From assembly GCF_988242995.1 (NCBI RefSeq), contig NZ_OZ547043.1: DNA of 64,000 nucleotides; one strand, 5' to 3'. The notes under the pieces are model-generated. The model worked only from the letters and a program-made list of their open reading frames with translations. It searched no databases and was not told where the DNA came from. The position numbers and the translations under genes are program-made. Position 1 is the first letter of the stretch, and every line of letters starts with the position of its first letter. Positions 20,956 to 51,583 of the stretch are shown here, in pieces.

Positions 20956-20982
20956 TTATCGGCAAGGAGGGGGGAAACTTTA
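20956..20982 (-). promoter_or_regulatory. sigma28 (FliA) class 3 promoter of the tar-tap-cheRBYZ operon
   Basis: minus strand TAAAGTTT-N11-GCCGATAA, exact consensus halves, about 25-30 nt upstream of tar start. Confidence 0.8.
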
Positions 20983-21012
20983 TTGCTGATGCCACCCGCC
21001 GCGAAATTGAAA

Positions 21013-21040
21013 TAAAAAACCCGATGCGCAGATCATCGGG
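21013..21040 (-). terminator. rho-independent terminator after cheW (end of motAB-cheAW operon)
   Basis: minus-strand stem cccgatg/catcggg followed by U-tract. Confidence 0.8.
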
Positions 21041-21068
21041 TTCATTTCAATTGAGGAAATCGGGAGAA

Positions 21069-39270: not shown

Positions 39271-39357
39271 TGGTACCCGGAGCGGGACTTGAACCCGCAC
39301 AGCGCGAACGCCGAGGGATTTTAAATCCCTTGTGTCTACCGATTCCACCATCCGGGC
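39271..39357 (-). tRNA. leuZ: tRNA-Leu (anticodon UAA), 87 nt
   Basis: minus-strand sequence GCCCGGATGGTGGAATCGGTAGACACAAGGGATTTAAAATCCC...GGGTACCA; long variable arm; CCA encoded. Confidence 0.95.
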
Positions 39358-39369
39358 TCGGGAAGAAAG

Positions 39370-39443
39370 TGGAGGCGCGTTCCGGAGTCGAACCGGACTA
39401 GACGGATTTGCAATCCGCTACATAACCGCTTTGTTAACGCGCC
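39370..39443 (-). tRNA. cysT: tRNA-Cys (anticodon GCA), 74 nt
   Basis: minus-strand GGCGCGTTAACAAAGCGGTTATGTAGCGGATTGCAAATCCG...GCGCCTCCA. Confidence 0.95.
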
Positions 39444-39497
39444 AAATTCTTCAGGCCTTTCAGCCAGACATCCGCTTGAGGCCGATGTCTTTTAAAC

Positions 39498-39573
<76 letters not shown>

Positions 39574-47927: not shown

Positions 47928-48479
47928 TTAATATATATCAGAAGCAGGCAGGCTGGAGGATTTCTGCACAAGTCCGGTACACGTTTGACGCTGATAGTGT
48001 TGATACTTCCGTAATGCGATGCGGTAATTGTTGGTGCTGGTGGTGGGCAGCCACGGGGCGAGGATTTCATCAAGGAAACCGTCCTGCAGCGGATCGAGGG
48101 AAATATTTTGCTCGTGTAGATGATTCCCCAAACGGCGCAAACGAACGACATATTCACGCACCGTACCTGGGCTCATTTCAGTTTGCTCAAAAAGAAATTG
48201 CTTAAAGCCGATAATATCGAAAAAATCACTCTGCGTTTTGCAATGTAAATCACCGCAAAATCGGCACAATGCCGCCCATGATTTTTGTTCCGTTTGCCAG
48301 CCATTTTCATCAAGCAGCGCGTCCAGGCGGGAAATCTCGATTTTATTCACTATTTTGCCGTCGCGAACGAGGGTAATGCGATCGAGTAATTTACGGCAAT
48401 GCGCGCAATGAGTCTGGCTGTGTTTAAAGTCTTTAAGATAGCGGCTTAATGGCCGTCTTTTCAGGTGCTGCACCATCAT
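47928..48479 (-). CDS. fliZ: regulator FliZ (183 aa)
   Basis: ORF track 47928..48515; start set at MMVQHLKRRPL; directly downstream of fliA. Confidence 0.92.
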   Translation of the reverse strand: MMVQHLKRRPLSRYLKDFKHSQTHCAHCRKLLDRITLVRDGKIVNKIEISRLDALLDENGWQTEQKSWAALCRFCGDLHCKTQSDFFDIIGFKQFLFEQTEMSPGTVREYVVRLRRLGNHLHEQNISLDPLQDGFLDEILAPWLPTTSTNNYRIALRKYQHYQRQTCTGLVQKSSSLPASDIY

Positions 48480-48524
48480 TAAGAACTCCTGGTAGTCAAA
48501 GTTAAAGTGCGGCATTTACTGACG

Positions 48525-49244
48525 TTATAACTTACCCAGTTTAGTGCGTAACCGTTTAATAGCCTGGCTGTGTAACTGACTGACCCGCGATTCCCCGACC
48601 TCCAGCACCGCGCCAATCTCTTTGAGATTCAGCTCTTCCTGGTAATAGAGGGTTAATACCAGTTTTTCGCGCTCCGGCAACGTTTCGATGGCTTCCATCA
48701 CCCGCTGACGCAGATTACTGTCCAGCAGTTGTTGTAGCGGGTTTTCTCGCTGATGATCATCAGTAACCAGTTCGATGCTATCGCCGTGCTCTTCGCGCCA
48801 CTCATCGTAGGAGAAGAGCTGGCTGTTATTGGTGTCGAGCAACATTTGGCGATAATCGGCAATATCGATCCCTAAACGTTCCGCTACCTCAGTTTCCGTG
48901 GCGTTGCGGCCAAGTTCCTGCTCCAGTTGCCCTATTGCCTGTGCCACTTCACGCGCGTTGCGTCGCACGCTGCGCGGCACCCAGTCACGGCTGCGAAGTT
49001 CATCCAGCATAGCGCCACGGATACGCTGCACTGCGTAAGTTGTAAATGCCGTTCCTTGTAGGGCGTCATAGCGTTCGACGGCATTAAGTAACCCAATGCC
49101 GCCCGCCTGTAGCAGATCGTCAAGTTCCACGCTCGCGGGCAGTCGAACCTGCAGGCGCAATGCTTCGTGACGCACCAGCGGGACATAACGCTGCCATAGC
49201 GAGTGTTTATCCATTACACCTTCAGCGGTATAGAGTGAATTCAC
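48525..49244 (-). CDS. fliA: flagellar sigma factor FliA (sigma28, 239 aa)
   Basis: ORF track; sigma70-family regions 2 and 4 recognisable. Confidence 0.96.
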   Translation of the reverse strand: MNSLYTAEGVMDKHSLWQRYVPLVRHEALRLQVRLPASVELDDLLQAGGIGLLNAVERYDALQGTAFTTYAVQRIRGAMLDELRSRDWVPRSVRRNAREVAQAIGQLEQELGRNATETEVAERLGIDIADYRQMLLDTNNSQLFSYDEWREEHGDSIELVTDDHQRENPLQQLLDSNLRQRVMEAIETLPEREKLVLTLYYQEELNLKEIGAVLEVGESRVSQLHSQAIKRLRTKLGKL

Positions 49245-49371
49245 GATAAACAGCCCTGCGTTATATGAGTTATCGGCATGATTATCCGTTTCTGCAGGGT
49301 TTTTAATCGGACGATTAGTGGGTGAAATGAGGGGTTATTTGGGGGTTACCGGTAAATTGCGGGCAGAATAA

Positions 49372-50077
49372 ATATCCTCCGGCATAGCCGGAGGTTTTTC
49401 AAATGCGCCTGTAAGGCTCTGTTACCAGCCGCGCCCTAACAGGCGCATACGATCTGACATTTGCATTCAACTTCGTTACTTACGGCCCGTAAACGGGCTG
49501 CCCGGATATGGAATCGATAACTGCTCCCCCATTTTATCCTCTTCAAGCTGGTGCTTTATGTAGTCACGTATCTTCGCCGTGTTCTTACCCACCGTATCGA
49601 CATAGTACCCTCGGCACCAGAACTCCCTGTTTCTGTATTTGAATTTCAAATCCCCAAACTGCTCGTAAAGCATCAGACTGCTTTTCCCTTTCAGATATCC
49701 CATAAAGCCGGATACGCTCATTTTGGGTGGGATTTCCACAAGCATATGGATATGATCTGCGCAGCACTCTGCTTCCAGAATCCGTACGCTTTTCCACTCA
49801 CACAGCTTTCTCAAAATACTGCCTATCGCCCTACGCTTCTCTCCGTAAAACGCCAGTCTTCGGTATTTCGGCGCAAAAACTATGTGATATTTACAGTTCC
49901 AGCGGGTGTGCGCTAAGCTCTTTTCGTCCCCCATTGGGACCCCCTTTTGATTTCTTGTTTGACACTTGCAGTTGCCAGACCGCAAGGTGTTTTAACAAAT
50001 CAAAAGGGGTTTTAATAACTGGCTCAAAGCTGAAAGCTTTCCGGAACCCCCAGCCTAGCTGGGGGTTTTCTGTGCAC
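49372..50077 (-). mobile_element. IS200-family insertion sequence (IS200/IS605 group) in the fliA-fliC intergenic region
   Basis: intact 152-aa tnpA matching IS200 TnpA as recalled; terminal hairpin aacccccagcctagctgggggtt at 50045-50067; ends estimated from the canonical ~707-bp element, about +/-30 bp uncertain. Confidence 0.8.
49476..49934 (-). CDS. tnpA: IS200 transposase TnpA (HUH/Y1 ssDNA transposase, 152 aa)
   Basis: ORF track 49476..49985; start at MGDEKSLAHTRWNCKYHIVFAPKYRR; HxH motif (DHIHMLVEIPP) and C-terminal catalytic Tyr region. Confidence 0.92.
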   Translation of the reverse strand: MGDEKSLAHTRWNCKYHIVFAPKYRRLAFYGEKRRAIGSILRKLCEWKSVRILEAECCADHIHMLVEIPPKMSVSGFMGYLKGKSSLMLYEQFGDLKFKYRNREFWCRGYYVDTVGKNTAKIRDYIKHQLEEDKMGEQLSIPYPGSPFTGRK

Positions 50078-50108
50078 AAAAAACCCCGCCGGTGGCGGGG
50101 GTTGAGCG
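50078..50108 (-). terminator. rho-independent terminator of fliC
   Basis: minus strand ccccgccaccggcgggg followed by TTTTTT, 12 nt after fliC stop. Confidence 0.85.
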
Positions 50109-50119
50109 ATAAGTGTAAA

Positions 50120-51583
50120 TTAACGCAGCAGAGACAGTACGTTCTGCGTGGTCTGGTTAGCCTGCGCCAGAACAGAGGTACCCGCTTGTTGCAGGATCTG
50201 CGCACGAGACATGTTAGACACTTCGGTCGCGTAGTCAGCATCTTCGATACGGCTACGGGCAGAAGACAGGTTGTTTACGGTGTTGCCAAGGTTGGTGATA
50301 GCAGAGTCGAAACGGTTTTGTACTGCACCGAGGTCAGAACGCAGATTGTCAACTTTAGCCAATGCTTTGTCGATAGTTTCGAGCGGGTTGGTGGTAGATT
50401 GCAACGATTTTGCTGCATCTTCGTTTACCAGAATCGGGCTACCACCTTCTGATTTGCTCAGATACATGACTTTATTGTTACCAGAAGCAGTCTCCGTTAT
50501 CGTTTTACCATCTGCACTAACATCGTAAGTTGCACCGTTAACAACTAACGTGCTTCCTGTTTTCTTAGCTGCATTGAGATCAAGATCGGAAAGTGTGGCA
50601 GCCTTGTTATCAACTTTGGTTGTCGTATAAAGGCCAGCGCTATTTTTGTAAACTGTCTCACTCGTAATCAAAGAAGCTTTTTTGTCAGCATCTTTCACAG
50701 TAAATGTCACTGACTTACCATCAATTTCTGCAGAATATACACCATTCCCATTGCCATCCGCTGCAGTTGTTGTTGTGAATTCAACTCCATTAAACGTGAA
50801 TTTATCATTCTGTGCTTTATTCTTAGCCGCTGCTGCGAGTGCTGTAGCATCAATCCCTGTACCAGCTATGTTTGTGTCAGATTTAGTTGTCAGTGAACCA
50901 TCTGCTGCACTAACAAAAATATCATTCCCTGTAGTATCTTTAACAGCTCCGCTATCTACGTTAACAGTATAAGCATCACCGCCAACATCATAGTTATCAG
51001 TACCTGTCGCTTTAAATTTAGAAATCAGGTCACTGCCAGTTGCTTTCTGCGCGCCATCGATATTAAAACCGTCCAGGCCGAGAGTTTTCGCATCAATTTT
51101 TGCCAGATTGATAGTGATGGTTTCACCATCATTAGCACCAACCTGAATTTTCATTTCATTATTTTCAGCAAGGACTTTCACGCCGTTAAACTGAGTTTGC
51201 TCAGATACACGGTCAATTTCTTCCAGACGTTGAGTAATTTCAGCCTGGATAGAAGAAAGATCGCTGTCAGAGTTAGTACCGTTAGTTGCCTGAACAGTCA
51301 GTTCACGTACACGCTGCAGGTTGTTGTTAATTTCATTCAGCGCACCTTCAGTGGTCTGCGCAACAGAAATACCATCATTCGCGTTACGGGAAGCCTGAGT
51401 CAGACCTTTAATATTTGCTGTAAAACGGTTAGCAATCGCCTGACCTGCTGCGTCATCTTTAGCACTGTTAATACGCAGGCCAGAAGAGAGACGTTCAATG
51501 GCGGAGCTCAGAGAAGACTGAGATTTGTTCAGGTTATTCTGGGTCAACAGCGACAGGCTGTTTGTATTAATGACTTGTGCCAT
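50120..51583 (-). CDS. fliC: flagellin FliC (487 aa); conserved D0/D1 termini with variable central domain
   Basis: ORF track; N-terminus MAQVINTNSLSLLTQNNL and C-terminus ...QNVLSLLR typical of enterobacterial flagellin. Confidence 0.96.
   Translation of the reverse strand: MAQVINTNSLSLLTQNNLNKSQSSLSSAIERLSSGLRINSAKDDAAGQAIANRFTANIKGLTQASRNANDGISVAQTTEGALNEINNNLQRVRELTVQATNGTNSDSDLSSIQAEITQRLEEIDRVSEQTQFNGVKVLAENNEMKIQVGANDGETITINLAKIDAKTLGLDGFNIDGAQKATGSDLISKFKATGTDNYDVGGDAYTVNVDSGAVKDTTGNDIFVSAADGSLTTKSDTNIAGTGIDATALAAAAKNKAQNDKFTFNGVEFTTTTAADGNGNGVYSAEIDGKSVTFTVKDADKKASLITSETVYKNSAGLYTTTKVDNKAATLSDLDLNAAKKTGSTLVVNGATYDVSADGKTITETASGNNKVMYLSKSEGGSPILVNEDAAKSLQSTTNPLETIDKALAKVDNLRSDLGAVQNRFDSAITNLGNTVNNLSSARSRIEDADYATEVSNMSRAQILQQAGTSVLAQANQTTQNVLSLLR

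What the first reader, a model, noticed from the sequence alone, without database searches (positions are those of the whole stretch)
49372..50077. IS200-family element inserted between fliA and fliC, abutting the fliC terminator
An intact 152-aa IS200-type TnpA (49476..49934, minus) with the characteristic terminal hairpin (aacccccagcctagctgggggtt, 50045-50067) sits in the fliA-fliC intergenic region. Its tnpA-proximal end lies immediately next to the fliC intrinsic terminator (50078-50108), and only about 125 bp of native sequence remain upstream of fliA. IS200/IS605 elements transpose as single-stranded DNA and are guided by hairpins, so insertion beside a terminator is mechanistically plausible. 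The element separates fliC (and any fliC 3'-UTR-derived sRNA such as FliX) from the fliA class 2 promoter region and could alter read-through or FlhDC-dependent fliA control. K-12 carries no IS at this site to my knowledge; an IS200 near fliA is classically a Salmonella feature, yet this locus is otherwise E. coli (tap present, no fliB).
Basis: partly seen in the sequence, partly recalled or inferred. Interest (0 to 1): 0.6.

Follow-up and report, generated by a model that had tools for sequence, protein, structure and literature searches.

The report
IS200 insertion behind the fliC terminator
An intact copy of the well-known IS200 insertion sequence sits just after the transcription terminator of the flagellin gene fliC and upstream of fliA in an E. 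coli strain; this is the kind of site IS200 normally uses, the neighbouring signals are intact, and only the location is new.

Summary
Window 49367-50077 (minus strand) is a complete IS200-group insertion sequence. It has a 152-aa Y1/HUH transposase (H61, H63, Y125, Q129), the left-end hairpin, the structured tnpA 5'UTR (Rfam STnc490, 146 bits) and a right-end hairpin. It is 99.4-99.7% identical to three IS200 copies checked at other E. coli loci.

An E. coli genome with the same fliC allele and an empty site shows a clean +711 bp insertion at the end of the fliC terminator's T-tract. The hairpin and all six T are kept. All 122 bp on the fliA side are kept.

None of 5,426 complete E. coli genomes has IS200 at this site. 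Neither do 24 contigs with the identical FliC, nor 24 with the identical TnpA.

The position is typical of the element. In 113 distinct left-end flanks from many bacteria, about 76% pass a strict terminator test, against 5.5% of controls. A Salmonella contig has IS200 in the same orientation right after the fliB terminator, 148 bp before fliA.

Verdict: a real, probably recent and probably neutral insertion of a known element. A regulatory effect on fliA or fliC is untested and not suggested by the sequence. Low interest.

The parts
49367..50077 (-). Complete IS200-group insertion sequence. It is 711 bp in the IS608-style convention (5' GTGCACAG...ATATTTATT 3' on the minus strand). The 709-bp core is 49369-50077, with a 2-nt TT placement ambiguity.
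   Evidence: Empty site in L001: GCAG-AAAAAA-CCCC. Filled site: GCAG-AA-[709 bp]-AAAAAA-CCCC. The span difference is 3059-2348 = 711 bp. Identity to copies at other loci is 709/709 nt at 99.4-99.7%.
49476..49934 (-). tnpA, a 152-aa Y1 (HUH) single-strand DNA transposase. Catalytic residues are H61-I62-H63, Y125 and Q129.
   Evidence: Pfam PF01797, E 8e-37. NCBIfam NF033573, 144 bits against a cut-off of 55. Alignment to IS608 TnpA 2a6m places H61/H63 on H64/H66 and Y125/Q129 on Y127/Q131.
50045..50067 (-). Left-end perfect hairpin (10-bp stem, 3-nt loop), at element nt 11-33. It corresponds to the nt 12-34 inverted repeat described as a bidirectional terminator in Salmonella IS200.
   Evidence: Fold. 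Single match in the window, with 0 expected. Anatomy from PMC4513863.
49944..50067 (-). Structured tnpA leader: the left-end hairpin plus a long stem-loop that covers the ribosome-binding site. The region also encodes the antisense RNA art200.
   Evidence: Rfam RF01405 STnc490, 146.4 bits (gathering score 56), full model 1-124. Role from PMC4513863 and PMC5435999.
49376..49394 (-). Right-end hairpin CCTCCGGCTATGCCGGAGG followed by ATATTTATT. It is terminator-like on both strands.
   Evidence: It is conserved in all full copies. In tandem Y. pestis copies it serves as the target for the next copy.
50078..50100 (-). fliC intrinsic terminator and insertion target: stem 50084-50100 and T-tract 50078-83 (CCCCGCCACCGGCGGGG TTTTTT). 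It is intact, and the element starts right after the sixth T.
   Evidence: The hairpin and the six T are identical to those in the empty site of L001.
49245..49366 (-). Unchanged fliA upstream region (122 bp). It holds the sigma-28 -10 box GCCGATAA (49270-49277). It also holds a sequence resembling the distal FlhD4C2 half-site, AACCCCCAAATAACC (49333-49347), 19 bp from the element.
   Evidence: Identical to the empty-site sequence of L001. The box assignments are my reading against consensus sequences recalled from the literature, so they are inferred.

Best explanation
This is an intact and probably recently transposed copy of the enterobacterial IS200 insertion sequence (IS200/IS605 family, IS200 group).

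Shown: the element's complete anatomy, and a clean 711-bp insertion with no loss of host sequence. The insertion point lies directly after the last T of the fliC intrinsic terminator, with tnpA pointing the same way as fliC and fliA.

Inferred mechanism: the Y1/HUH transposase excises one strand as a single-stranded circle. It pastes that circle 3' of a short T-rich target on single-stranded DNA. For this group of elements the preferred target is the T-tract that follows a terminator hairpin, on the strand that carries hairpin plus T-tract. Here that strand is the lagging-strand template.

Inferred consequence: the insertion is close to neutral. The fliC terminator, the 3' end of fliC that gives the FliX small RNA, and the 122-bp fliA promoter region are all unchanged. 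The element also carries hairpins at both ends that insulate it transcriptionally. The site was hit because it is a terminator, not because it is flagellar.
For: Identity.

Ends and empty site.

Near-identical copies at the ydcH, flhC-motA and sseA terminators, with 2-4 nt differences.

Uniqueness, which suggests a recent event: 0 of 5,426 complete E. coli genomes cover at least 80% of the fliA-IS-fliC query, and the best hits are empty sites at 77% coverage. All 24 contigs read that carry the identical FliC have fliA directly after fliC. None of the 24 contigs read that carry the identical TnpA is at fliC-fliA.

Terminator targeting: 86 of 113 distinct left-end flanks pass a strict hairpin-plus-T-tail test, against 5.5% of 2,000 control 45-mers ending in TT. 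Mean folding energy is -18.5 against -7.5 kcal/mol. 90 of 113 flanks end in TT. The flanks come from E. coli, Y. pestis, Vibrio, Edwardsiella, Tatumella, Mailhella, Bacillota and Enterococcus. [quoted passage not shown]

Strand: GC skew of the + strand is negative from the start of the window through the element, about -0.04 to -0.09. It flattens and turns slightly positive beyond about 48-52 kb.

Neutrality: the terminator and the fliA upstream region are unchanged. No sigma-70-like promoter was found in 49150-50200 on either strand. The right-end hairpin is terminator-like on both strands. S. Typhimurium carries IS200 in the equivalent fliB-fliA gap as a serovar marker (PMC6415898). Contig L132 shows it in the same orientation, right after the fliB terminator hairpin and 148 bp before the fliA start.
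Against: No transcript or motility data exist for this strain, so neutrality is an inference.

The element is 26 bp closer to fliA than in Salmonella. It lies about 19 bp from the putative distal FlhD4C2 half-site, so an effect on activator binding or DNA bending is not excluded.

This copy's TnpA has R123 where three other E. coli copies have Q123, two residues before the catalytic Tyr. The effect on activity is unknown, although the same variant occurs at several other loci.

Part of the terminator bias could reflect survival of harmless insertions rather than target choice.

GC skew over 64 kb is confounded by gene orientation.
Confidence: 0.88

Rival explanations
1. The insertion is regulatory and possibly selected. 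Placing IS200 19 bp upstream of the FlhD4C2 box changes class 2 activation of fliA. Alternatively, its hairpins block residual fliC-to-fliA read-through, or weak tnpA transcription reads into fliA. Any of these would alter flagellar timing or motility.
For: The element lies close to the fliA promoter region. Independent IS200 insertions occupy the equivalent position in Salmonella. IS200 is also found next to other flagellar terminators, at flhC-motA in L003 and at tcyJ in L128.
Against: No promoter element or terminator is altered. No outward promoter-like site was found. The right-end hairpin is terminator-like in the tnpA direction. Published work describes IS200 as transcriptionally insulated, with a weak promoter (PMC4513863). 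The insertion is absent from all 5,426 complete genomes searched, so there is no sign of spread by selection. The flagellar examples are what a general preference for terminators would produce.
Confidence: 0.08
2. It is an inactive relic, or the region was imported from Salmonella by recombination, rather than arising by local transposition in E. coli.
For: IS200 is described as largely dormant (PMC4513863). An IS200 next to fliA is best known from S. Typhimurium. The R123 variant lies next to the catalytic Tyr.
Against: The open reading frame, both ends and the leader are complete. The copy differs by only 2-4 nt from the three E. coli copies compared, while the flanks are 99.9% E. coli. The insertion point is after the fliC terminator here and after the fliB terminator in Salmonella, so the events are independent. 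Uniqueness of the site argues for a recent event.
Confidence: 0.03
3. It is an assembly artefact, with a repeat copy wrongly placed at this locus.
For: IS200 is multicopy in many E. coli genomes, with up to 36 places per genome. Short-read assemblies often break at it, and many loci end at the element.
Against: Both junctions are exact and have the canonical form: terminator T-tract | GTGCAC ... ATATTTATT | flank. They restore the empty site precisely. A misjoin would not be expected to do this.
Confidence: 0.01

Closest known systems
IS200 of Salmonella enterica, and the E. coli IS200 copies annotated 'IS200/IS605 family transposase'
   Same: About 707-711 bp with a single tnpA gene and no terminal inverted repeats. 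It has the left-end hairpin at about nt 11-34, a leader stem-loop over the ribosome-binding site (STnc490/art200 region) and a right-end hairpin. It is 99.4-99.7% identical to the three copies compared from other E. coli genomes. 1,863 of 5,426 genomes hold a near-complete copy.
   Different: Only the location. This site is unoccupied in every complete E. coli genome searched. TnpA has R123 instead of Q123.
The S. Typhimurium serovar-specific IS200 in the fliB-fliA intergenic region
   Same: It sits immediately after the terminator of the last gene of the flagellin unit and upstream of fliA. tnpA points the same way as fliA. The right end ...CCGGAGGATATTTATT faces fliA (PMC6415898).
   Different: It is a different host and a different terminator (fliB, a gene E. 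coli lacks). It lies 148 bp rather than 122 bp from the fliA start codon, so it is an independent event. Only the right junction of the Salmonella copy was seen here, because contig L132 starts inside the element.
IS1541 of Yersinia pestis
   Same: 86.5-86.6% nucleotide identity over the whole element, with the same end structures. Every copy examined abuts a hairpin plus T-tract. To my recollection, Odaert et al. 1998 proposed terminator-like stem-loops as IS1541 hot spots. That paper is not in the held library.
   Different: It has a higher copy number and occurs in tandem arrays in Y. pestis. It is a distinct sequence lineage.
IS608 (Helicobacter pylori) and ISDra2, the mechanistic paradigms of the family
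   Same: The TnpA fold family and catalytic residues are the same (E 2e-19 to 2a6m). Both have subterminal hairpins, insert 3' of a short target, make no target duplication and show a lagging-strand bias (known for IS608/ISDra2; inferred here).
   Different: IS608 also carries tnpB and recognises TTAC without needing a hairpin in the target. The IS200 group has tnpA only, and its observed targets are T-tracts behind hairpins.

Membership tests
IS200/IS605 family, IS200 group | Encodes a Y1 (HUH) transposase of about 150 aa as its only gene | tested here: met
   PF01797 over the full model, E 8e-37. NF033573 transpos_IS200 at 144 bits against a cut-off of 55. No other plausible gene lies within the 711 bp.
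IS200/IS605 family, IS200 group | Catalytic HUH motif, Tyr nucleophile and the following Gln | tested here: met
   H61-I62-H63, Y125 and Q129 align with H64/H66, Y127 and Q131 of IS608 TnpA (2a6m).
IS200/IS605 family, IS200 group | No terminal inverted repeats; subterminal hairpins at both ends | tested here: met
   The ends GTGCACAGAAAA... and ...GGAGGATATTTATT are not complementary. Hairpins lie at 50045-50067 and 49376-49394.
IS200/IS605 family, IS200 group | Inserts 3' of a short target with no target-site duplication | tested here: met
   The empty site against the filled site gives +711 bp with nothing lost. The only repeat is TT, which is invariant at the right end of all copies and is best read as the element's own last two bases. 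A true 2-bp duplication cannot be formally excluded.
IS200/IS605 family, IS200 group | Conserved structured tnpA leader (left-end hairpin plus stem-loop over the ribosome-binding site; art200/STnc490 region) | tested here: met
   RF01405 at 146.4 bits against a gathering score of 56, full length.
IS200/IS605 family, IS200 group | Present as near-identical copies at unrelated loci (mobility) | tested here: met
   15,799 places in 5,381 genomes match part of the query. The three copies compared, at other loci, differ by 2-4 nt. The identical TnpA occurs at several further loci.
IS200/IS605 family, IS200 group | Transposes as single-stranded DNA by peel-and-paste | not testable with these tools
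   Inferred from family membership. The strand orientation is consistent with it.

The most novel reading that the evidence does not exclude
The terminator just upstream of fliA may be a recurrently captured IS200 site in two genera: after fliC in this E. coli strain and after fliB in S. Typhimurium. On this reading, an IS200 there tunes fliA expression. It could do so by blocking read-through from the flagellin gene or by changing the DNA context of the FlhD4C2 site. The insertion would then be adaptive rather than a neutral by-product of terminator targeting.
Probability: 0.06. Interest if true: 0.45.

Novelty: already known. Interest (0 to 1): 0.15.

Why it matters
It matters little beyond strain typing. 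The junction is a specific marker for this lineage, in the same way the fliB-fliA IS200 is used to identify S. Typhimurium. The case is also a clean natural example of how IS200 chooses terminators, with an exact empty site for comparison. It indicates that IS200 has moved recently in this E. coli background. If the insertion did change fliA control, it would add to the known ways insertion sequences retune motility, but nothing in the sequence points that way.

Tried and rejected
1. I looked for the same insertion elsewhere. Two megablast searches of 5,426 complete E. coli genomes, a look-up of contigs with the identical FliC and a look-up of contigs with the identical TnpA found none. Only 24 contigs were read in each look-up, out of 922 and 34 index blocks, so absence is not proven. 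I did not run a junction-pattern scan of metagenome contigs, because a hit would not change the interpretation.

It still gave 120 loci, which I used for the flank statistics.

3. For the Salmonella comparison, a FliA homologue search and then a look-up of a Salmonella FliA gave mostly empty fliB-fliA sites. One contig starts inside the IS200 right end (L132), so only the right junction could be read.

4. Odaert et al. 1998 on IS1541 insertion sites is not in the held library. I cite its content from memory only.

5. I considered whether the hairpin plus T-tract next to the left end is part of the element. I rejected this because it differs at every locus and is present in the empty site.

6. 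I considered a true 2-bp target duplication. It is not excluded. The invariant TT after the right end, including one copy whose left flank ends in CT (L108), favours TT being part of the element.

7. The weak Rfam match to anti-hemB over the fliC terminator (18.6 bits, E 0.59) is a generic terminator resemblance, and I dismissed it.

8. Rfam places STnc490 on the tnpA-sense strand, whereas PMC4513863 describes art200 as antisense to the leader. The model is dominated by palindromic stems, so I draw no conclusion about the strand.

Full report
**What is there**

The region reads fliZ (47928-48515), fliA (48525-49244), a 152-aa ORF at 49476-49934, and fliC (50120-51583). All are on the minus strand. 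fliD runs divergently on the plus strand.

The 152-aa protein matches Pfam Y1_Tnp over the whole model (E 8e-37). It also matches NCBIfam 'transpos_IS200' at 144 bits against a curated cut-off of 55. Aligned to the solved IS608 transposase (2a6m), its H61-I62-H63 falls on the HUH motif, H64/H66. Its Y125 and Q129 fall on the catalytic Y127 and Q131.

Upstream of tnpA, Rfam STnc490 matches full length at 49944-50067 with 146 bits against a gathering score of 56. This is the Hfq-binding RNA region of the IS200 leader. That hairpin occurs once in the window and never in shuffles. It folds as a 10-bp stem. At the other end, a second hairpin at 49376-49394 is followed by ATATTTATT. This anatomy matches the published description of IS200: 707 bp, a terminator hairpin at nt 12-34 and a leader stem-loop at nt 69-138 (PMC4513863).

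**Exact ends and the empty site**

A search with fliA-IS-fliC (3,059 nt) against 5,426 complete E. coli genomes found no genome covering 80% or more of the query. The best hits are 99.9% identical over both flanks and span 2,348 bp, which is 711 bp shorter than the query.

In one of them (L001, NZ_CP119120), fliA and the identical-length flagellin gene are 164 bp apart. The junction reads GCGGGCAG-AAAAAA-CCCCGCCGGTGGCGGGG. In the window it reads GCAG-AA-[TAAATATCC...CTGTGCAC]-AAAAAA-CCCC.

Read on the minus strand, the insertion follows the sixth T of the fliC terminator: CCCCGCCACCGGCGGGG TTTTTT | GTGCACAG...ATATTTATT | CTGCCCGC. Nothing is deleted. The terminator stem and its six T are intact. 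All 122 bp on the fliA side are identical to the empty site.

The TT is repeated at both junctions. It is invariant after the right end in all full-length copies whose right end could be read, even where the left flank ends in CT (L108). I therefore read it as the last two bases of the element, in the IS608 style. That gives 49367-50077, or 711 bp. A true 2-bp duplication cannot be excluded. The right-end boundary (49372) is 3-5 bp short.

**Is it a live, ordinary IS200?**

Near-complete copies occur in 1,863 of 5,426 E. coli genomes, with up to 36 places per genome. Three copies fetched from other loci align over all 709 nt with only 2-4 differences. They lie after ydcH, between flhC and motA, and after sseA.

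This copy's TnpA differs from all three at one residue, R123 instead of Q123. The exact R123 protein is found at several other loci, after ytfL, ccmH, purL and recA. None of these is at fliC-fliA.

The identical FliC protein was found on 24 contigs that were read, and all have fliA directly downstream. The insertion is therefore real in form and unique in everything searched. It is most simply a recent transposition.

**Why this spot**

In every E. coli copy fetched, the left end abuts a GC-rich hairpin plus a T-run belonging to the gene upstream, and tnpA points the same way as that gene. To test generality, I scanned representative genomes for the left-end hairpin. This gave 120 loci from Y. 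pestis (IS1541, 86.6% identical), Vibrio, Edwardsiella, Tatumella, Dickeya, Mailhella/Desulfovibrio, Bacillota, Enterococcus and others.

Among 113 distinct 45-nt left flanks:
- 86 pass a strict test for a hairpin followed by a T-rich tail, against 5.5% of 2,000 control 45-mers that also end in TT.
- Mean folding energy is -18.5 kcal/mol, against -7.5 for controls.
- 90 end in TT.

Where copies are tandem in Y. pestis, the 'terminator' used is the right-end hairpin plus ATATTTATT of the preceding copy.

This agrees with a recent preprint reporting terminator-like sequences over-represented just upstream of insertion sequences, most strongly for IS200/IS605 (10.1101/2025.07.22.666184). To my recollection it also agrees with Odaert et al. 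1998 for IS1541, a paper that is not in the held library. Some of the bias may come from survival of harmless insertions. The exact abutment, 0-9 nt after the stem, points to target choice.

GC skew of the plus strand is negative from the start of the window through the element, and turns slightly positive only beyond about 48-52 kb. The minus strand therefore carries the hairpin, the T-tract and the element's top strand, and it is the lagging-strand template. This is what the family's single-strand mechanism predicts. It is an inference, and gene orientation confounds it.

**Consequences for the flagellar genes**

FliX is a processed RNA of about 200 nt from the 3' end of the fliC mRNA (PMC10578931). 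It lies wholly on the fliC side of the insertion and is unchanged.

The fliA upstream region keeps its sigma-28 -10 box, GCCGATAA, at 49270-49277. It also keeps a sequence resembling the distal FlhD4C2 half-site at 49333-49347, 19 bp from the element. These assignments rest on consensus sequences I recall from the literature, so they are inferred.

No sigma-70-like promoter was found anywhere in 49150-50200 on either strand. The right-end hairpin is terminator-like in both directions. The literature describes the left-end hairpin as a bidirectional terminator and the tnpA promoter as weak. The likeliest outcome is no effect.

**The Salmonella parallel**

S. Typhimurium is identified by an IS200 in the fliB-fliA gap, which gives a 1,000-bp amplicon instead of 250 bp (PMC6415898). 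Salmonella loci fetched through FliA show the empty gap (L129, L130).

One contig (L132) begins with ...CCTCCGGCTATGCCGGAGGATATTTATT|CTATCTGG. This places the IS200 right end directly after the fliB terminator hairpin (GGGGTGGGCTTTTGCGCATCCC GTTTATC). It has the same orientation as fliA and lies 148 bp before the fliA start codon.

The E. coli insertion is thus an independent event of the same kind, behind a different terminator and 26 bp closer to fliA. To my knowledge, standard S. Typhimurium strains carrying that element are motile, which fits with such an insertion being tolerated.

**Verdict**

The element and its targeting behaviour are already known. Only the location is unrecorded in the collections searched. 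The regulatory idea is untested and not favoured by the sequence. Interest is low.

Noticed in passing
L003 (NZ_CP187781, E. coli 097H6) 1513-2221: In another E. coli strain, an IS200 copy sits between flhC and motA, right after the hairpin GCAGCGGTAACGACGTACCGCTGC TTTTTT. According to PMC10578931, the sigma-28 transcript that starts in flhC terminates at the 5' end of motA to give the MotR small RNA, and read-through feeds motAB-cheAW. If this hairpin is that terminator, the insertion could be polar on motA expression.
   Followed up: partly
L128 (GCA_053151395.1) about 6880-7464: A strain with the identical FliC has an IS200 after the tcyJ (fliY) terminator, GGGCGCTTTCACCAGCGCC TTTTTTATT | GTGCAC, about 2.4 kb from the site studied here. 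This is a second terminator in the fli region used by the element.
   Followed up: partly
L100, L101, L103 (Yersinia pestis NCTC5923): These loci carry head-to-tail tandem IS1541 copies joined as ...GGAGGATATTTATT|GTGCCCAG. The right end of one copy mimics a terminator (hairpin plus T-rich tail) and serves as the target for the next copy.
   Followed up: partly
loci L005-L098: The 23-nt left-end hairpin AACCCCCAGC-NNN-GCTGGGGGTT is conserved exactly in elements from very distant bacteria, including Bacillota, Enterococcus, Desulfovibrionaceae, Oxalobacter, Saccharibacteria and Elusimicrobia. In many of these, blastn similarity to the element was detected only at the left end.
   Followed up: no
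window 49566-49568 (TnpA codon 123): This copy has CGT (Arg) where three other E. coli copies have CAG (Gln), a change of two adjacent bases, two residues before the catalytic Tyr125. The exact variant also occurs at other loci.
   Followed up: partly
L133 (NZ_CP090448, E. coli PT62); also hits H36-H39: Several genomes with this same fliC allele have the flagellin gene itself interrupted by IS5, ISKpn26 or IS1A. In PT62, fliZ also has an internal stop. These look like independent losses of motility by insertion sequences.
   Followed up: partly
window 50076-50149 (-): There is a sub-threshold Rfam match to Burkholderia anti-hemB (18.6 bits, E 0.59) over the fliC stop codon and terminator. It is a generic terminator resemblance and not meaningful.
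   Followed up: yes
window 6674-6981 (-), 20972-21049 (+), 2696-2738 (+), 39274-39573 (-): Other RNA genes in the window score above Rfam gathering thresholds: MicL, C0465, ES036 and a cluster of three tRNAs. All are ordinary for this part of the E. coli chromosome.
   Followed up: no
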